Source: Escherichia phage vB_EcoM-E33
DNA length: 64,000 nucleotides
Sequence record: OL780484.1
Reading direction: 5' to 3' (one strand)
The notes beneath the pieces are model-generated. The model did no database searches. It was given only the letters and a program-made list of their open reading frames with translations, and had not been told where the DNA came from. Of this stretch, positions 6,854-27,486 are shown piece by piece. The position numbers and the translations under genes are program-made. Each line of letters starts with the position of its first letter. The stretch's first letter is position 1.

Positions 6854-7548
6854 AACACATTACCGCTGTTAGTTTTGAAAACGCGTTTAAGCAAATGAAC
6901 GAAGAAATCCTGGAAGCTCCACAGTTTGCAGTTGATTCTCGTATCGGCCGTTGTTATGAAATTGGTTCTGCTTCGGTAGAAGTACTGGATGCAAGCACCT
7001 ATAAATTCACCGACCCTCGTATTAATCGTATCAACTATGATTATGCCGAATCTTTCTGGAAGTTTATGATTTCTGGTGGTACTGACGCCGCCGAAGCATT
7101 TAAGGAATACCCTAATGTTGCTAAGTTCATTGATAAGCCGAAAAGTGACGTATTGCCTGCAAACTTCAACACTTTCTATGGACCTAGAATTGTGGCCCAA
7201 CTCCCAGCCTTACTTAAAGAGCTTAAAGAGAAGCCTAACTCAAGACGAGTTGTGTTCCAAATTCTCCAAGAACAAGACCAAGCCCTCCTTGATTCTGACG
7301 AATCCTTAGAATATCCATGTACTGATTCAGTGACATATTATATTCGTGATGGACGTCTTTATGCACATACCCATATGCGTTCACAGAACTGTGCTATTGT
7401 TATGCAGCTGGATTTCTATCTGCAGGGTAAACTGATGGCCTTTATTGCTGAACAGTGTGGTGTTGGTCTGGGTACGTATTCCCATACTATGGTTAGTGCA
7501 CACGTATTTGAACGTGATTTTGACTACGTTCGAGGATTCCTGAAATGA
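6850..7548 (+). CDS. 42: dCMP hydroxymethylase gp42 (thymidylate-synthase fold)
   Basis: 232 aa; position between imm and uvsX as T4 gene 42; TS-like C-terminal region; start overlaps upstream stop. Confidence 0.8.
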   Translation: MKHITAVSFENAFKQMNEEILEAPQFAVDSRIGRCYEIGSASVEVLDASTYKFTDPRINRINYDYAESFWKFMISGGTDAAEAFKEYPNVAKFIDKPKSDVLPANFNTFYGPRIVAQLPALLKELKEKPNSRRVVFQILQEQDQALLDSDESLEYPCTDSVTYYIRDGRLYAHTHMRSQNCAIVMQLDFYLQGKLMAFIAEQCGVGLGTYSHTMVSAHVFERDFDYVRGFLK

Positions 7549-16345: not shown

Positions 16346-16411
16346 GGTTTTAAGGGTTTACTTTCTAGGAAGGCCGTGTTAAGATGGTCTTATCTTATAG
16401 AGGAGAACACT

Positions 16412-22025: not shown

Positions 22026-22696
22026 AAGATATAATTATTGACTTTGAAACCTTTGCCACTACTCAAAATGCAGCGGTTATCGACCTAGCCGTAATTGCTT
22101 ACGACCCTAATCCAGAGGTTGTAGAAACGTTTGAAGAGCTTACTCAACGAGGCCTTCGTATTAAATTTGACCTCGCTTCTCAACGTGATAAACGACTGTT
22201 TTCTAAAAGCACGTTGCAGTGGTGGAAAGAGCAAGGGCCTGAAGCGCGTAAAAACCTGGCTCCATCTGAAATTGATGTGTCCACTTCTATTGGTCTCGGT
22301 AATTTCCTGGAATACTGCCGTAAAAACGAAGTGGACCAATGGAAATCTCAGATGTGGTGCCGTGGAATGTCCTTTGACTTTCCTATCTTAGTAGACCTAA
22401 TCCGTGATGCTTATCGTTCTGAAGGTGTTCCTGAGAATGAAATTGATACCAGTAAATTAGAACCGGTTAAATTCTGGAACCAACGTGACATCCGTACAGC
22501 TATTGAAGCATATTCACTAACTCGTGGATTGAGCATGTGTCCTCTGCCTAACGGAACATTGAATGGCTTTGTTGCTCATGACTCCATCCATGACTGTGCT
22601 AAGGATATCTTGATGCTTAAATATGCCCAACGATACGCCTTGGGTCTGGAAGATGTCCCTGAGAATCCTGACCCATTAAGTATAAAAAATCGATAA
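22022..22696 (+). CDS. dexA: Exonuclease A DexA (DnaQ-like 3'-5' exonuclease)
   Basis: 224 aa; IIIDFETF exo I motif; synteny after dda. Confidence 0.85.
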   Translation: MKDIIIDFETFATTQNAAVIDLAVIAYDPNPEVVETFEELTQRGLRIKFDLASQRDKRLFSKSTLQWWKEQGPEARKNLAPSEIDVSTSIGLGNFLEYCRKNEVDQWKSQMWCRGMSFDFPILVDLIRDAYRSEGVPENEIDTSKLEPVKFWNQRDIRTAIEAYSLTRGLSMCPLPNGTLNGFVAHDSIHDCAKDILMLKYAQRYALGLEDVPENPDPLSIKNR

Positions 22697-22700
22697 AAGT

Positions 22701-22729
22701 GTTTACTTCTCCTCATGACATGATATTAT
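22701..22729 (+). promoter_or_regulatory. T4-type early promoter
   Basis: GTTTAC, 17 nt, TGaTATTAT, CTATCAAC leader, SD GAGGAGAA. Confidence 0.55.
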
Positions 22730-22756
22730 CTACCCTATCAACATGAGGAGAACAAA

Positions 22757-23266
22757 ATGAAAATTTATCGAGTGGAGTCATCGTTCAGTATCTTAGATAA
22801 CAGCGATGTTATAGCAATCACTCACCAACAGTGCCGCCAATTAACACCGTATAGAGGCTCGTTTGATGAATGGAGCGAAGGTTGGTTATTAGAAGTAGGT
22901 TTCGACAAACCTAATTTTAGACACCACCATACCAATAATAAAAATATTCCACTACCAGGTCAAGACAAGTTGTTGGTGGAAAATTCTAATAAAACCATTC
23001 GAACTAAGTGGAACCAGCCTGATTATGAAGGCTGTGATGATTATATTCCAGGTTGGTTTGTTAATCTCTACCATTTTGCTTTTGCCAGTGAGTATGATAT
23101 GATGCGCTGGTTCACTCGTGAAGAGCGTGAAGAATTATCTTCTAAAGGATTCTATCTTGCCGTTTACGAAATCCCTGAAGATGAGGTTGTCATTGGTGGC
23201 CACCAAGTAATGTTCCGCAAATCCCATGCTGAACTCGTAGATTTTATTGAATTGAGAACAATATGA
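22757..23266 (+). CDS. Hypothetical protein (169 aa)
   Basis: ORF track; early promoter and SD. Confidence 0.5.
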   Translation: MKIYRVESSFSILDNSDVIAITHQQCRQLTPYRGSFDEWSEGWLLEVGFDKPNFRHHHTNNKNIPLPGQDKLLVENSNKTIRTKWNQPDYEGCDDYIPGWFVNLYHFAFASEYDMMRWFTREEREELSSKGFYLAVYEIPEDEVVIGGHQVMFRKSHAELVDFIELRTI

Positions 23267-23811
23267 AATTTAATTACAACCCTAAATACACCCCGAATCC
23301 GGCAGCTAAACTGATTGATTTTGATGTTTTAAGCACTTATGTATGCCCTGTTAAACCACTGGAAATTAAGGAACCTGCTATGAATACTCAGACTATCGAA
23401 ATCGGCAAAACCTACAAACTGGTTGAACCTGAAATTAAAACTAAGGCCTTGATTTCTGGCCATAAAACTCTGACTGAGGTTTTTGGCGAAGGCGAATTTA
23501 TTGTTGAAGAATTTACCAAAAGTGACTGGTTTACTAAATCTTACGTCATCCACGGCCGTCGATTAGATAATAACAAAATAGAGAAAATCTTGGTTTATGA
23601 AGATGAGTTCATCCTGTTCCAAGAAGTTGAAGAACAAGAACCTACCGACCTTCTGTGTGCTGCTGTGTCTATCCGTCGTCCTTTTGATAATCCTATCTGT
23701 GGTTGGGTAACAGACCAGTGGGTTGAAGACGGTGTTGAGCTGCTGAACGTTGTACATGCTGGTGATTTTAGCGTAGTACCTCGTAGTGCAGTGGTTAATG
23801 TATTGAATTAG
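23263..23811 (+). CDS. Hypothetical protein (182 aa), paralog A
   Basis: C-terminal block TDQWVEDGVELLNVVHAGDFSVVPRS shared with next gene. Confidence 0.5.
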   Translation: MKFNYNPKYTPNPAAKLIDFDVLSTYVCPVKPLEIKEPAMNTQTIEIGKTYKLVEPEIKTKALISGHKTLTEVFGEGEFIVEEFTKSDWFTKSYVIHGRRLDNNKIEKILVYEDEFILFQEVEEQEPTDLLCAAVSIRRPFDNPICGWVTDQWVEDGVELLNVVHAGDFSVVPRSAVVNVLN

Positions 23812-23884
23812 TAGTTTACTTTATCGAGAGCCATGTTATAATGGCTCTCATGGAGAATAAACTTATTAACCAAGAGAGAAAATT

Positions 23885-24436
23885 ATGATTACTATCGGTG
23901 AAATTGTTCGTGTATCCAAAGAATCTCGCTCAAAAGCCGCGGGTCGTTTTGTTGAAGTTGCTGGTATTCGTACTAATTTAGTAGGTGGAATTAAAGAAGT
24001 TAAAGTGCGTATTATTCCTAAAAATGGCCAGACTGAAACTCAATTCGCTTATGTGCATCCTAAATTCCTGGAATCAACTGAATTCACTGGACACATCGCT
24101 CCTGTAGTTGAAGAAGTTGAATCCCATGATGGGTATGTATGTGAAAGCAATGATATCCGTGGCGTAGTAGCTCAAGACGTTGAAACTATTGACCAATCTC
24201 ATGTTGGTGTTGATTTCAAATGGAAATTAGGTAAAGGTGTCTTTTTCGTTTCACCTAAACCGTTTGAATACAATTGCAAGTATGGTCCGACTTATGAAAC
24301 CACTAGTATGTCCGGTTACATCACAGACCAATGGGTTGAAGAAGGTGTTAAGCTGTATAACATCGTGTTCCTTGGCACCTTTAAAGTAGTTCCTGAAAGT
24401 TTTATTGTTGAGTACGCTGATATTCATTTTGCATAA
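23885..24436 (+). CDS. Hypothetical protein (183 aa), paralog B
   Basis: C-terminal block TDQWVEEGVKLYNIVFLGTFKVVPES; own early-type promoter (GTTTAC…TGtTATAAT). Confidence 0.5.
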   Translation: MITIGEIVRVSKESRSKAAGRFVEVAGIRTNLVGGIKEVKVRIIPKNGQTETQFAYVHPKFLESTEFTGHIAPVVEEVESHDGYVCESNDIRGVVAQDVETIDQSHVGVDFKWKLGKGVFFVSPKPFEYNCKYGPTYETTSMSGYITDQWVEEGVKLYNIVFLGTFKVVPESFIVEYADIHFA

Positions 24437-24508
24437 AGTTTAAAAACAGTATACAACAGGGTAGTAGTGTGATACTATTACCCTATCAACAAATGAGAGG
24501 AAAATAAA

Positions 24509-24727
24509 ATGGCTAAAGTTACTGTGAACTCGACTCGTGAAGAATTTGAAGATGTTCTGTTCAACCCTGATTTAATCGTGGTTCAAAAGGAACATTCTGA
24601 TACGTTTTCTCATTTATCGTCGGTTTATGTATACGAAAACCAAGGTGATGAAAACCCTATCTATGCGGTGTTCCGTGAAATCACTGCTGAAGGCACCGAC
24701 TTCTGGAAGGAAACTTATAATGCTTAA
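24509..24727 (+). CDS. Hypothetical protein (72 aa)
   Basis: ORF track; SD GAGAGGAAAA. Confidence 0.45.
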   Translation: MAKVTVNSTREEFEDVLFNPDLIVVQKEHSDTFSHLSSVYVYENQGDENPIYAVFREITAEGTDFWKETYNA

Positions 24728-25157
24728 TCAAGAACTTGAATTTGAAAAAGGTAAATGGTACTATTTTAAAGATGATGCGGCAGAAGCTGAATTCCGTAAG
24801 CTGAATTCCCATAATATTAGGAATCCTAATAATTCTTCTATAGCAGATATCATTGTCAATTCTGAAGGTTTTTGCCCTGTTAGATTAGCGGCAGGTTATG
24901 TGATGAACGTGGACTTGGCTTATGGTGATAACACTGATATGGTTTTATATCCAAGCGAGCGTAAATTCTTTACGGAAATGGTTGTAGTTGACAGTGAAGA
25001 CGAATGGGCCGAAGATGGTTTCTCTGAAGACGAAGACACGTCTGAAGATGCAGCTCCATTCGAACCGAGTGATTTTCCTTTAACTAAAATCACTATCTCT
25101 AATAATTCTGAAGCCTGGTCAGTTTTCCAGATGTTGAAAGCTCACTTTAAGGAATAA
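24720..25157 (+). CDS. Hypothetical protein with strongly acidic C-terminal region (145 aa)
   Basis: ATG 24720 overlapping upstream stop; DSEDEWAEDGFSEDEDTSEDAAPFEPSDF. Confidence 0.4.
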   Translation: MLNQELEFEKGKWYYFKDDAAEAEFRKLNSHNIRNPNNSSIADIIVNSEGFCPVRLAAGYVMNVDLAYGDNTDMVLYPSERKFFTEMVVVDSEDEWAEDGFSEDEDTSEDAAPFEPSDFPLTKITISNNSEAWSVFQMLKAHFKE

Positions 25158-25158
25158 T

Positions 25159-25335
25159 ATGCCACTTTATGATTACAAATGCCAATCTGAAGACTGTGCA
25201 AAAGAATACGAAAAAATCAAGAAAATCTCTGAAAGAGATAATGATGTTTGTCCTGATTGCCATCGGCTGGCTGTTCGGTTAGTCTCGGCTCCTAAACATG
25301 TTAATGGCGGTTTTTACGACCTGCTGACTAAGTGA
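25159..25335 (+). CDS. Zinc-ribbon protein, FmdB-like (58 aa)
   Basis: MPLYDYKCQSEDC…CPDCH: two CxxC pairs; SD AAGGAA 5 nt upstream. Confidence 0.45.
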   Translation: MPLYDYKCQSEDCAKEYEKIKKISERDNDVCPDCHRLAVRLVSAPKHVNGGFYDLLTK

Positions 25336-25341
25336 GAAATT

Positions 25342-25602
25342 ATGAAATATATTAATCGTTCTATTGCAGCTCTCGTATTAGCAGTTTCTTTGGTTGGATG
25401 TACTGATGCCGATAATGCTACCCGTGTATTGGATGCAAATGGCTACGAACAAATCCAAATCACAGGATACAACCTATTTGGCTGCTCTGAAGATGATTTC
25501 CAACGTACAGGCTTTATTGCTGTGGGTCCGACAGGTAAAAGGGTTGAAGGAACTGTTTGTTCTGGATTATTCTTTAAAAAGTCGACCATTCGATTTGATT
25601 AA
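25342..25602 (+). CDS. Putative lipoprotein (lipobox LVGC)
   Basis: MKYINRSIAALVLAVSLVGCTD…. Confidence 0.55.
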   Translation: MKYINRSIAALVLAVSLVGCTDADNATRVLDANGYEQIQITGYNLFGCSEDDFQRTGFIAVGPTGKRVEGTVCSGLFFKKSTIRFD

Positions 25603-25620
25603 GGGCTTCGGCCCTTTTAT
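25601..25620 (+). terminator. Terminator-like hairpin (aagggc-UUCG-gccctt + TTTTAT)
   Basis: Stem-loop overlapping stop of lipoprotein gene. Confidence 0.5.
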
Positions 25621-25644
25621 GCTTTAAGTGAAATGGGATAATAT
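25620..25644 (+). promoter_or_regulatory. Possible MotA-dependent middle promoter (TGCTTTA box + TAATAT -10)
   Basis: TGCTTTA at 25620-25626, 12-nt spacer, TAATAT; upstream of gene 39. Confidence 0.35.
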
Positions 25645-25668
25645 TCTCCTACTACATGAGGAAATAAC

Positions 25669-27486
25669 ATGATTAAGAATGAAATTAAAGTACTGTCCGA
25701 CATTGAACATATCAAAAAACGTAGTGGGATGTATATTGGCTCAAGTGCTAATGAAGCTCACGGTCGATTCCTGTTTGGTAATTTTACACAGGTAAACTAT
25801 GTTCCTGGACTGGTTAAATTAATTGATGAAATCATTGATAACTCTGTCGATGAAGCTATTCGTACCAATTTTAAATTCGCAAATAAAATTGATGTTCAAA
25901 TTAAGAATAACCAGGTTTCAGTTTCTGATAATGGTCGTGGTATTCCACAAGCAATGGTCACCGACCAAAATGGTGAACAGATTCCAGGTCCTGTAGCTGC
26001 ATGGACTATTCCAAAGGCAGGTGGTAACTTTGGAGATGACGCTGAGCGTAAGACAGGCGGCATGAATGGTGTCGGTAGTAGTTTAACTAATATCTTCTCT
26101 GTTTTGTTCACAGGCATCACCTCTGATGGTGAGAATGAGATTACTGTTAACTGTTCAAACGGAATGGAAAACAAAGGTTGGTCTACTAAGAAATCTAAAG
26201 GTAAGGGTACTTCGGTTATATTCACCCCAGACTTTAATCATTTCGAAGAAAATAGCCTGTCACAAATTTATCTGGATATTACATTAGACCGATTGCAAAC
26301 TCTGGCCGTAGTTTATCCTGATATTCAATTTACTTTTAATGGTAAAAAAGTAGATGGCAACTTTAAAAAGTATGCTAAGCAATTTGGTGAAGACTTTGTA
26401 ATCCAAGAAACCGATAATGTTTCGATGGCGTTCACTCCTTCTCCGGATGGATTCCGTCAACTGACTTATGTAAACAATATCCACACCAAGAATGGTGGCC
26501 ACCACGTTGAATGTGTATTCGATGATATTTGTGAACACCTTCTGCCAGGCATTAAAAAGAAATACCGTGGAATTGAAGTAACTAAAGCTCGTGTTAAAGA
26601 ATGCCTTACGATGGTGATGTTCATTCGTGATATGAGCAACATGCGTTTTGATTCACAGACTAAAGAACGTTTGACCTCTCCTTTTGGTGAGATTCGCAAT
26701 CATATCCAAATTGATGCTAAAAAAATTGCTCAAGCCATTCTTAAAGTTGATGGGTTGATTATGCCTATCGTTGAAGCTGCTTTAGCACGTAAATTAGCAG
26801 CTGAAAAGGCTGCCGAAACTAAAGCCGCTAAGAAAGCTTCTAAAGCCAAGGTCCATAAGCATATTAAAGCTAACCTATACGGCAAAGATGCTGATACAAC
26901 CCTGTTCCTAACCGAAGGTGATTCCGCTATGGGTCCTTTCATTGAAGTCCGTAATAAAGACCTTCAAGGTGGCTATCCATTACGTGGTAAGGTTATGAAT
27001 ACCTGGGGAATGACAGCAACAGATATCATGAAGAACAAGGAACTATTTGATATCTGTGCAATCACTGGATTGGTTATTGGTGAACCCGCAGAGAAAACCA
27101 ACTATCGTAATATTGCTATTATGACCGATGCCGATGTGGATGGTACTGGTTCGATTTATCCATCATTGCTAGCCTTCTTTAGTCAATGGCCTGAATTGTT
27201 CGAACAAGGCCGAGTACGTTTCTGTAAAACTCCGGTAATTATTGCCCAGGTTGGTAAAGAACAGGAATGGTTCTATGATGTGCCTAGTTATACCAAAGCT
27301 AAGGATTCTCTACCAAAACATTCTATTCGTTATATCAAAGGACTAGGTTCTCTTGAGAAAGCTGAATACCGTCGAATGATTCAAGACCCTAAATTTGATG
27401 TGGTTCAATTACCTGAAGATTGGAAAGAACAGTTCGAAATGCTCCTTGGTAATGACCCTCAACTCCGTAAGGCCTGGATGTCGTAA
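25669..27486 (+). CDS. 39: DNA topoisomerase II large subunit gp39 (GyrB-like ATPase + TOPRIM), contiguous 39+60 equivalent
   Basis: 605 aa; GHKL ATPase and TOPRIM-like regions; single uninterrupted ORF. Confidence 0.92.
   Translation: MIKNEIKVLSDIEHIKKRSGMYIGSSANEAHGRFLFGNFTQVNYVPGLVKLIDEIIDNSVDEAIRTNFKFANKIDVQIKNNQVSVSDNGRGIPQAMVTDQNGEQIPGPVAAWTIPKAGGNFGDDAERKTGGMNGVGSSLTNIFSVLFTGITSDGENEITVNCSNGMENKGWSTKKSKGKGTSVIFTPDFNHFEENSLSQIYLDITLDRLQTLAVVYPDIQFTFNGKKVDGNFKKYAKQFGEDFVIQETDNVSMAFTPSPDGFRQLTYVNNIHTKNGGHHVECVFDDICEHLLPGIKKKYRGIEVTKARVKECLTMVMFIRDMSNMRFDSQTKERLTSPFGEIRNHIQIDAKKIAQAILKVDGLIMPIVEAALARKLAAEKAAETKAAKKASKAKVHKHIKANLYGKDADTTLFLTEGDSAMGPFIEVRNKDLQGGYPLRGKVMNTWGMTATDIMKNKELFDICAITGLVIGEPAEKTNYRNIAIMTDADVDGTGSIYPSLLAFFSQWPELFEQGRVRFCKTPVIIAQVGKEQEWFYDVPSYTKAKDSLPKHSIRYIKGLGSLEKAEYRRMIQDPKFDVVQLPEDWKEQFEMLLGNDPQLRKAWMS

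What the first reader, a model, noticed from the sequence alone, without database searches (positions are those of the whole stretch)
23263..24436. Tandem paralog pair sharing a conserved C-terminal TDQWVE(D/E)GV…VVP(R/E)S module
Two ~182-aa proteins with divergent N-terminal halves but a near-identical C-terminal module, the second with its own early promoter. This suggests a duplicated effector family with a common binding domain and variable specificity.
Basis: seen in the sequence. Interest (0 to 1): 0.45.

Follow-up and report, generated by a model that had tools for sequence, protein, structure and literature searches.

The report
Phage motB.1–motB pair, shared C-terminal barrel

Summary
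ORF1 (23263-23811, 182 aa) and ORF2 (23885-24436, 183 aa) share a C-terminal module. BLASTP gives 19/34 identical residues, E 3e-11; the shuffle z-score is 14; profile-profile comparison gives E 1.9e-15 over 51 columns. The N-terminal halves show no similarity. "Near-identical" overstates 56% identity.

The window is a JS98-like Dhakavirus. ORF2 is MotB (Pfam PF17613, 175 bits). ORF1 is MotB.1, in conserved synteny motB.2–motB.1–motB–cef–goF. ORF2 has its own T4-early-type promoter (TTTACT-16-TGtTATAAT), at the same place as in T4.

The shared C-terminal domain (CTD) with different N-terminal domains (NTDs) was published by Patterson-West et al. 2021. The LSm-like NTD of MotB.1 was published by Kim et al. 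2025. The finding is therefore already known.

- The shared domain is predicted to be an SH3/Tudor-like barrel, not the OB-fold proposed from HHpred.
- Its core is acidic and is the most conserved segment in both families. MotB's KOW-like NTD is basic, so the CTD is more likely a partner-binding module than the DNA-contacting surface (inference).
- The CTD occurs in only about 30 clusters among 1.84 billion representatives, behind at least seven N-terminal architectures.

Side result: the T4 reference motB.1 (119 aa) carries a 1-nt insertion inside this domain; 13 other T4-type records encode 143 aa.

The parts
22702..22729 (+). Early-type promoter-like site (TTTACT-16-TATTAT with TG) upstream of motB.2; probable promoter of the motB.2-motB.1 unit
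   Evidence: Consensus scans only; no transcript mapping.
22757..23266 (+). motB.2 homologue (169 aa). Its TGA stop overlaps the ATG of ORF1 (ATGA), which suggests translational coupling
   Evidence: phrog_1106 E 1.9e-53. Annotated motB.2 in JS98 and T4.
23263..23811 (+). ORF1 = motB.1 homologue, JS98 type, 182 aa
   Evidence: phrog_2333 full length, E 1.9e-86. 92% identical to JS98/IME08 motB.1. Pfam motB matches only residues 141-177, 35.9 bits against a cut-off of 25.
23263..23391 (+). ORF1 residues 1-43: conserved N-terminal extension, predicted disordered, carrying the motif DFDVLSTY...KPLE (residues 19-34)
   Evidence: pLDDT below 50. Many invariant columns. The same D-x-D-[VIT]-x-x-[MTA]-Y motif lies directly upstream of the CTD in KOW-type and RB69-type relatives.
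23392..23628 (+). ORF1 residues 44-122: N-terminal small barrel (strand-helix-strand-strand-strand), the LSm/SH3-like domain reported for MotB.1/GoF/Frd.2; acidic
23650..23808 (+). ORF1 residues 130-182: shared C-terminal domain, MotB.1 subtype; core 145-178 at nt 23695-23796
   Evidence: Five strands with a short helix before the last strand. Core pairwise identity 95% and pI 4.1.
23815..23842 (+). T4-early-type promoter of motB: TTTACT, 16-nt spacer, TGtTATAAT
   Evidence: Same position in T4 and JS98 and in 14 IMG/VR loci.
23826..23849 (+). 9-bp hairpin GAGAGCCAT/ATGGCTCTC enclosing the -10 hexamer, 15 nt after the motB.1 stop and followed by GGAG (23852-23855)
   Evidence: RNA fold of 23812-23884 gives -23.4 kcal/mol, z -6.15. 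Relatives keep the stem with compensatory changes. Function unknown.
23885..24436 (+). ORF2 = motB, 183 aa
   Evidence: Pfam PF17613 E 9.7e-52, 175.5 bits. phrog_1671 E 6.5e-70. 100% identical protein named 'modifier of transcription'.
23885..24073 (+). ORF2 residues 1-63: basic KOW/SH3-like N-terminal barrel, the likely DNA-contacting domain
24074..24205 (+). ORF2 residues 64-107: disordered, variable linker with a 21-residue indel (VESHDGYVCESNDIRGVVAQD) present in some relatives only
   Evidence: pLDDT below 50 for residues 66-107. Alignment A2.
24206..24433 (+). ORF2 residues 108-183: shared C-terminal domain, MotB subtype with a longer first hairpin; core 142-175 at nt 24308-24409
   Evidence: pLDDT 78-90. 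hhalign. Core pI 4.4, pairwise identity 75%.

Best explanation
The two ORFs are the early genes motB.1 (ORF1) and motB (ORF2) of a JS98-like Dhakavirus, a T4-type phage of E. coli.

Architecture. Each protein is built from small beta-barrels joined by flexible segments.
- MotB is a basic KOW-like N-terminal barrel, a disordered linker, and a C-terminal barrel.
- MotB.1 is a conserved disordered N-terminal motif, an acidic LSm/SH3-like barrel, and the same C-terminal barrel.
- Only the C-terminal barrel is homologous: about 50 residues in MotB.1 and about 65 in MotB, with core motif G-[WYF]-[VI]-[TS]-D-Q-W-[VI]-E-x-G-x-x-L-x-N-[VI]-V.
- So the pair arose by duplication of this module combined with different N-terminal domains, not by duplication of a whole gene.

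Shown in the literature for T4 MotB, not for this phage:
- It binds DNA tightly and without sequence specificity.
- It copurifies with H-NS and StpA.
- It changes H-NS footprints and de-represses H-NS-silenced host genes.
- It raises burst size about 2-fold.

Inferred here:
- The DNA-contacting part of MotB is the basic KOW-like NTD.
- The shared C-terminal barrel is acidic, aromatic-rich and the most conserved segment in both families.
- It is predicted to be SH3/Tudor-like rather than OB-fold.
- It is therefore more likely a common protein-interaction or oligomerisation module. MotB would use it to dock a DNA-binding barrel, and MotB.1 an LSm-like barrel, onto the same partner or onto each other.

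Expression. motB.1 is probably translated in a unit with motB.2, because their stop and start overlap as ATGA. motB has its own early promoter.
For: Identity and synteny:
- The region is 92-98% identical in nucleotides to JS98, IME08, WG01 and PSD2002, whose records annotate motB.2, motB.1, motB, cef, goF, 39.2, 39.1 and 39.
- T4 has the same gene order.
- Pfam and PHROG assignments agree.

Shared module. N-terminal halves unrelated.

Fold:
- The AF2 MotB CTD has pLDDT 78-90. It has five strands with a short helix before the last strand, which is the SH3-like order. ORF1 shows the same pattern at lower confidence.
- Foldseek aligns the whole MotB model to tandem Tudor, SAWADEE and KOW6-7 structures.

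Charge and conservation:
- CTD core pI is 4.1 (MotB.1 family) and 4.4 (MotB family).
- MotB NTD pI is 10.0, net charge +5.
- Whole MotB.1 pI is 4.9, net charge -8.
- Core pairwise identity is 95% and 75%, against 75% and 60% for the NTDs.

Modularity:
- The CTD profile finds only 34 clusters among 1.84 billion representatives.
- All credible hits are 101-251 aa with the CTD at the extreme C-terminus.
- The N-terminal architectures are KOW, LSm-like, tandem LSm-like, or an extra domain.

Literature: MotB biochemistry; MotB.1/GoF/Frd.2 LSm-like NTD and lack of a deletion phenotype.
Against: - No experiment exists for this phage's proteins.
- The ORF1 model is of low confidence (mean pLDDT 56.6), so its fold matches are weak evidence.
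- Foldseek E-values are weak (at best 9e-3).
- Published HHpred analysis assigned the MotB CTD to the cold-shock OB-fold family.
- An acidic core does not exclude nucleic-acid binding through other surfaces. The T4 MotB CTD as a whole is near neutral (pI 8.0).
- No partner of the CTD has been identified.
- My profile comparison of the ORF1 family with the GoF family was not significant. The LSm-like/GoF relationship of the NTD therefore rests on the PHROG hit, the predicted topology and the literature.
Confidence: 0.8

Rival explanations
1. The shared C-terminal domain is an OB-fold (cold-shock-like) nucleic-acid-binding domain, as proposed in 2021. On this reading both MotB and MotB.1 bind DNA or RNA through it, and the N-terminal domains only modulate binding.
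For: HHpred assignment of T4 MotB residues 69-149 to SCOPe b.40.4.5, with aIF5A as closest hit (PMC7827196). MotB binds DNA strongly. OB and SH3-like barrels are both five-stranded and easily confused.
Confidence: 0.2
2. The shared domain is primarily a homo- or hetero-dimerisation domain, so that MotB and MotB.1 form mixed oligomers and MotB.1 tunes MotB's DNA compaction.
For: The two genes are adjacent, both early, and co-occur in many genomes; 40 phages besides T4 have both. The CTD core is the most conserved segment in both. Tudor/SH3-like barrels often mediate protein contacts (established knowledge). The 119-aa T4 MotB.1 ran as monomer and dimer on non-reducing SDS-PAGE.
Against: AlphaFold3 gave no confident MotB.1 homomultimers, though that used the truncated sequence. 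Deleting motB.1 in T4 gave no burst-size change, whereas motB amber does. Some phages carry only one CTD protein, for example the KOW-m-C1 type.
Confidence: 0.2
3. The similarity reflects recent gene conversion between neighbouring genes rather than an old shared module.
For: A 60-nt direct repeat with 75% identity, including a 33-nt stretch with 4 mismatches, joins the two cores.
Against: MotB-type and MotB.1-type CTDs keep subtype-specific residues across genera (KLYN.VF against ELLNVVH; alignment A5). They form separate branches in the published tree. The identity between subtypes in this window (56% by BLASTP; about 40% in the A5 alignment) is no higher than between subtypes from other phages (37-46%).
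Confidence: 0.03
4. Chance similarity, or ORF1 is not a real gene.
For: None beyond the short length of the match.
Against: E 3e-11 and z 14. ORF1 is conserved at full length in hundreds of phage records and 224 protein clusters, with no frame disruption across 64-98% identity.
Confidence: 0.01

Closest known systems
T4 MotB (Pfam PF17613; PHROG 1671), 'modifier of transcription', a phage nucleoid-associated-like DNA-binding protein
   Same: ORF2 matches the model end to end (175.5 bits) and is 49% identical to the T4-type MotB cluster (P0195). It has the same position between motB.1 and cef and the same early promoter position. The architecture is the same: KOW-like NTD plus conserved CTD.
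   Different: ORF2 is 183 aa against 162 aa, because of a 21-residue insertion in the disordered linker. The whole protein is less basic than T4 MotB (family median pI 6.8 against 9.2 for T4). DNA binding and H-NS effects have not been tested for this orthologue.
T4 MotB.1 (PHROG 2333), member of the GoF/MotB.1/Frd.2 'LSm-like fold' group (Kim et al. 2025)
   Same: ORF1 sits immediately upstream of motB and downstream of motB.2. Its CTD is 66% identical to T4's over residues 104-182. It has an acidic N-terminal small barrel.
   Different: ORF1 belongs to the JS98-type architecture, which has a 43-residue conserved, predicted-disordered N-terminal extension absent from T4 MotB.1. The NTD sequence is not alignable with T4's by tblastn. 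The T4 reference protein (119 aa) is truncated by a frameshift that other T4 records lack.
Tudor / KOW / chromo / PWWP / SH3-like small beta-barrels (e.g. 53BP1 tandem Tudor, Spt5 KOW6-7)
   Different: There is no sequence relationship (identity 8-22%). The profile search of PDB sequences found nothing. No evidence was obtained for an aromatic cage or for methyl-lysine binding. The resemblance is at fold level only.
Phage anti-H-NS proteins such as T7 gp5.5 or Arn
   Same: They have the same functional theme as published for MotB: an early phage protein that changes H-NS behaviour on DNA.
   Different: They are unrelated in sequence and fold. MotB acts while bound to DNA rather than by sequestering H-NS, according to the cited papers.

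Membership tests
MotB (Pfam PF17613 / PHROG 1671) | Full-length match to the family profile above the curated cut-off | tested here: met
   ORF2: 175.5 bits against a cut-off of 25, profile positions to 161/162; phrog_1671 positions 2-166/166. ORF1 matches only profile positions 117-153 (35.9 bits), so it carries the domain but is not a MotB orthologue.
MotB (Pfam PF17613 / PHROG 1671) | Basic KOW-like N-terminal barrel | tested here: met
   ORF2 residues 1-63 are predicted as a four-strand barrel, pLDDT about 67-87, family pI 10.0. ORF1 lacks it.
MotB (Pfam PF17613 / PHROG 1671) | Non-specific DNA binding, co-purification with H-NS/StpA, toxicity in E. coli | not testable with these tools
   Known only for T4 MotB.
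MotB (Pfam PF17613 / PHROG 1671) | Conserved genome position between motB.1 and cef, with its own early promoter | tested here: met
MotB.1 (PHROG 2333) | Full-length profile match and position between motB.2 and motB | tested here: met
   ORF1 matches phrog_2333 at positions 1-210/210, E 1.9e-86. Synteny with JS98 gp009.
MotB.1 (PHROG 2333) | C-terminal domain homologous to the MotB CTD | tested here: met
GoF/MotB.1/Frd.2 LSm-like fold group | N-terminal five-stranded bent barrel related to GoF | tested here: inconclusive
OB-fold, cold-shock DNA-binding family (proposed for the CTD in 2021) | Five-stranded barrel with OB strand order and closest structural neighbours among OB proteins | tested here: not met
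Tudor/SH3-like small barrels | Fold-level similarity to solved members | tested here: met
Tudor/SH3-like small barrels | Sequence homology or a ligand-binding aromatic cage | tested here: not met
   The CTD profile found no PDB sequence (best E 1.3). Cage geometry could not be examined.

The most novel reading that the evidence does not exclude
The shared C-terminal barrel is a Tudor/SH3-like protein-docking module rather than an OB-fold DNA binder. Through it, MotB and MotB.1 would be recruited to one common partner (H-NS/StpA filaments, or each other). The conserved D-x-D-x-x-x-x-Y linear motif, which travels with the MotB.1-type barrel, would be part of that interface. The published MotB.1 expression work used the 119-aa sequence of the T4 reference, which lacks half of this barrel. 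The function of intact MotB.1 would then be essentially untested.
Probability: 0.3. Interest if true: 0.45.

Novelty: already known. Interest (0 to 1): 0.2.

Why it matters
As a discovery it matters little. The motB/motB.1 relationship is in the literature, and this window adds only another orthologous pair.

Three practical points could help people working on T4 early proteins.
1. The domain that defines the family looks SH3/Tudor-like and acidic. Domain-dissection experiments should therefore test the KOW NTD for DNA binding and the CTD for protein partners.
2. The family is a compact example of barrel-domain shuffling confined to T4-type phages.
3. The T4 reference annotation of motB.1 appears to be truncated by a single-base insertion. 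This affects constructs designed from NC_000866.

Tried and rejected
- Profile-profile comparison of the ORF1 family with the GoF family, to confirm the LSm-like NTD link, was not significant. The alignments were shallow (Neff 1.4), so I treat this as inconclusive rather than negative.
- The CTD profile against PDB sequences found nothing.
- PADLOC found no match for motB.2, motB.1 or motB.
- Rfam and tRNA scans of 22500-25800 found nothing.
- The long (600-1544 aa) hits of the CTD profile carry repeated 'SGYATEQWVE.KGYL' units in the one sequence fetched (P0300). They match only 20-25 profile positions several times, so I rejected them as spurious.
- A weak BLASTP match between the ORF1 N-terminus (FNYNPKYTPN) and the ORF2 CTD insert (FEYNCKYGPT) has E 0.09 and was rejected as chance.
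- The NAR 2021 MotB compaction paper could not be fetched. Statements on compaction rest only on a secondary citation.
- L002 was not available to the Python environment at first, so the translate tool was used instead.

Full report
**1. What is at the coordinates**

The window has two + strand ORFs exactly where stated: 23263-23811 (182 aa) and 23885-24436 (183 aa). The start of ORF1 overlaps the stop of the upstream ORF (22757-23266) as ATGA.

The quoted motifs are present in the translations. BLASTP aligns ORF1 145-178 with ORF2 142-175 without gaps: 19/34 identical, 26/34 similar, E 3e-11. A Smith-Waterman score of 109 compares with 31.9 +/- 5.4 for 2000 shuffles (z 14). The N-terminal parts alone score below the shuffle mean.

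With family profiles the homologous region grows to 51 columns, ORF1 130-180 against ORF2 114-177. MotB carries a 13-residue insertion between the first two strands (probability 98.5%, E 1.9e-15). At DNA level the cores are 75% identical over 60 nt. An HMM of the module finds no third copy in the six-frame translation of the window.

"Near-identical" should read "56% identical over 34 residues".

**2. What the genes are**

The 3-kb region is 92-98% identical to Dhakavirus genomes (PSD2002, WG01, QL01, JS98, IME08). In JS98 the corresponding genes are annotated dda, dexA.1, dexA, motB.2, motB.1, motB, cef, goF-like, 39.2, 39.1, 39. T4 has the same order.

- ORF2 matches Pfam PF17613 (motB) end to end: 175.5 bits, cut-off 25. 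It also matches phrog_1671.
- ORF1 matches phrog_2333 over its full length (E 1.9e-86). It matches the Pfam motB model only over positions 117-153 (35.9 bits).
- ORF1's residues 44-126 also hit phrog_622, the family that the window's goF homologue matches.
- All listed homologues of both ORFs carry a precomputed PF17613 hit.

ORF1 is motB.1 and ORF2 is motB.

**3. Expression signals**

A TTTACT-16-TATAAT site with TG upstream lies at 23815-23842, between the two genes. T4, JS98 and 14 IMG/VR relatives have the equivalent site at the same place. A similar site at 22702-22729 precedes motB.2. Both genes are described as early genes in T4. The promoter assignments are consensus matches plus positional conservation, not mapped starts.

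**4. What is already published**

Patterson-West et al. 2021 (PMC7827196) reported several points.
- The homologues fall into a MotB group and MotB.1 groups with two kinds of NTD.
- 40 phages besides T4 carry both genes.
- From HHpred they proposed a KOW NTD and a cold-shock OB-fold CTD.

The 2018 paper showed that T4 MotB is toxic in E. coli and binds host and modified T4 DNA without specificity. It also copurifies with H-NS and StpA and doubles burst size. The 2021 paper showed altered H-NS footprints and de-repression of 75 host genes.

Kim et al. [quoted passage not shown] They found no phenotype for T4 delta-motB.1.

**5. Structure predictions made here**

MotB (24-sequence alignment) gave mean pLDDT 69.
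- Residues 1-63 form a barrel (pLDDT about 67-87).
- Residues 66-107 are disordered.
- Residues 108-183 form five strands with a short helix before the last strand (pLDDT 78-90).

ORF1 (19 sequences, low diversity) gave mean pLDDT 56.6.
- Residues 1-43 are disordered.
- Residues 44-122 run strand-helix-three strands.
- Residues 134-180 show the same five-strand pattern with a short helix before the last strand.

I read MotB as two SH3/Tudor-like barrels on a flexible linker, and the shared CTD as SH3-like rather than OB. This rests on predicted models. The tools do not report which query residues aligned in single-domain hits.

**6. Charge and conservation**

| Segment | pI | Net charge | Mean pairwise identity |
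|---|---|---|---|
| MotB.1 family, CTD core | 4.1 | -4 | 95% |
| MotB family, CTD core | 4.4 | -2 | 75% |
| MotB.1 family, NTD | 5.4 | -2 | 75% |
| MotB family, KOW NTD | 10.0 | +5 | 60% |
| MotB.1, whole protein | 4.9 | -8 | 79% |

The shared core is acidic and is the most conserved stretch in each family. Inference: MotB's non-specific DNA binding is more plausibly carried by the basic NTD. The shared barrel is a conserved interaction module whose partner is unknown. Candidates are self-association or hetero-association, or H-NS/StpA.

**7. Distribution and architectures**

A CTD-only profile (alignment A5) searched against 1.84 billion cluster representatives found 34 proteins at E <= 1e-3 and 21 at E <= 1e-10. 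The credible ones are 101-251 aa and all have the module at the extreme C-terminus.

The sequences and motif positions give these architectures. K is the KOW-like barrel, L the LSm-like barrel, m a short motif, Cb the MotB-type CTD and C1 the MotB.1-type CTD.
- K-Cb: MotB.
- K-m-C1 and K-C1: for example P0292 and P0286.
- L-C1: T4 MotB.1.
- L-m-C1: RB69 type, P0291.
- m-L-C1: this window's ORF1, P0284, P0290.
- m-L-L-C1: P0283.
- X-m-L-C1: P0294 and P0029.

The motif m is D-x-D-[VIT]-x-x-[MTA]-Y followed by KP[LI]. In ORF1 it is DFDVLSTY...KPLE (residues 19-34), inside the predicted-disordered N-terminal extension. In the K-type and RB69-type proteins it sits directly before the CTD.

Some C1-type proteins (P0293, P0296) carry a long first hairpin like MotB's, bridging the two subtypes. 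It also shows that the pair is a product of domain shuffling, not of whole-gene tandem duplication.

**8. Mechanism and confidence**

- Identity of the genes: near certain.
- MotB function (DNA coating and H-NS modulation): shown for T4, inferred by orthology here.
- Shared CTD as a protein-docking SH3/Tudor-like module rather than a DNA-binding OB-fold: my inference, probability about 0.3-0.4. The OB/DNA-binding reading is at about 0.2.
- Recent gene conversion: unlikely, because subtype-specific residues are kept across genera.

**9. Side results**

(a) T4 reference frameshift. NC_000866.4/AF158101.6 has ATTGGAAGATGG where assembly OZ035787.1 has ATTGAAGATGG. The extra G truncates MotB.1 at 119 aa (...WVTDQWIGRWR*) in the middle of the conserved core. 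It leaves a 29-codon ORF, EDGVELLNVVHAGEYSVVPRSAVVAILN. Thirteen other T4, T4T, RB55 and RB59 records encode an intact 143-aa protein. Only the two reference records need two tblastn pieces. Kim et al. built motB.1 constructs by gene synthesis from NC_000866.4 and quote a 13.8-kDa monomer, which equals the truncated form. Neither paper mentions a frameshift.

(b) RB69. The RB69 "29-aa peptide" (Category 3 in the 2021 paper) directly follows a 132-aa motB.1. It is the tail of the same gene, cut by two single-base indels in NC_004928. An intact 164-aa relative exists (P0291).

(c) Hairpin at the promoter. The motB.1-motB spacer folds into a strong hairpin that encloses the -10 hexamer (-23.4 kcal/mol, z -6.15). 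T4 has the same arrangement with a different stem, and relatives show compensatory pairs. Several other early-type promoters in the window show the same arrangement.

**10. Verdict**

The feature is already known, so overall interest is low. The modest refinements are the fold and charge of the shared domain, the motif, the architectures, and an annotation problem in the T4 reference.

Noticed in passing
L002 5292-5310 (NC_000866.4 about 7291-7310); L003 412-843: The T4 reference genome has one extra G (ATTGGAAGATGG against ATTGAAGATGG) inside motB.1. This truncates the protein to 119 aa in the middle of the conserved C-terminal core. Thirteen other T4/T4T/RB55/RB59 records encode an intact 143-aa protein. 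Published MotB.1 constructs were synthesised from the reference sequence (13.8 kDa).
   Followed up: yes
L004 5377-5873 (NC_004928 8376-8872): RB69 motB.1 (132 aa) is followed directly by the annotated 29-aa ORF that the 2021 paper lists as a separate 'Category 3' peptide. The sequence shows two single-base indels splitting one gene. An intact 164-aa homologue exists (P0291).
   Followed up: partly
window 23826-23849; also the promoter sites starting at 16357, 33939, 49901 and 54169: The -10 hexamer of the motB early-type promoter lies in the loop and 3' arm of a 9-bp hairpin (RNA fold -23.4 kcal/mol, z -6.15). T4 and other relatives keep a hairpin at the same place with different, compensating stem sequences (GGGACCA/TGGTCCC, GGGGTCA/TGACCCC, GGTAGGAGCAT/ATGTTCCTACC). 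Four or five of 21 early-type promoters on the + strand of the window show the same arrangement. There is no T-run, so it is not a canonical terminator. It may mark the 3' end, or a stabiliser or processing site, of the upstream transcript.
   Followed up: partly
window 23852-23855: A GGAG tetranucleotide follows the hairpin by 2-3 nt in the window, T4 and most relatives (TGGAGAATAAA / GTGGAGTATAAA). GGAG is the known target motif of the T4 RegB endoribonuclease (from memory). Not tested.
   Followed up: no
window 23317-23364 (ORF1 residues 19-34): The conserved linear motif D-x-D-[VIT]-x-x-[MTA]-Y...KP[LI] travels with the MotB.1-type C-terminal domain but changes position. It is N-terminal in this ORF and immediately before the CTD in KOW-type and RB69-type relatives. 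This looks as if the LSm-like barrel had been inserted between the motif and the CTD.
   Followed up: partly
window 24116-24178 (ORF2 residues 78-98): A 21-residue segment, VESHDGYVCESNDIRGVVAQD, in the disordered MotB linker is present in some close relatives and cleanly absent in others (e.g. P0133, P0176). Its DGYV...D..... part resembles the linker of KOW-m-C1 proteins (NDGYVVDTDVASMY).
   Followed up: no
protein P0301 (43 aa, metagenomic): This sequence joins the N-terminus of MotB.2 (MKIYRVESSFSIL) to the last 28 residues of the MotB.1 CTD. It is apparently a deletion fusing motB.2 and motB.1 in some phage.
   Followed up: no
window 24459-24481: A second hairpin (GGTAGTAGT gtgat ACTATTACC) lies between motB and cef, again overlapping a -10-like TACTAT preceded by TG.
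   Followed up: no
window 24627-25157: The mechanical ORF for the goF homologue starts inside cef. The annotated JS98 start corresponds to 24720 (145 aa), overlapping the cef stop by 8 nt.
   Followed up: partly
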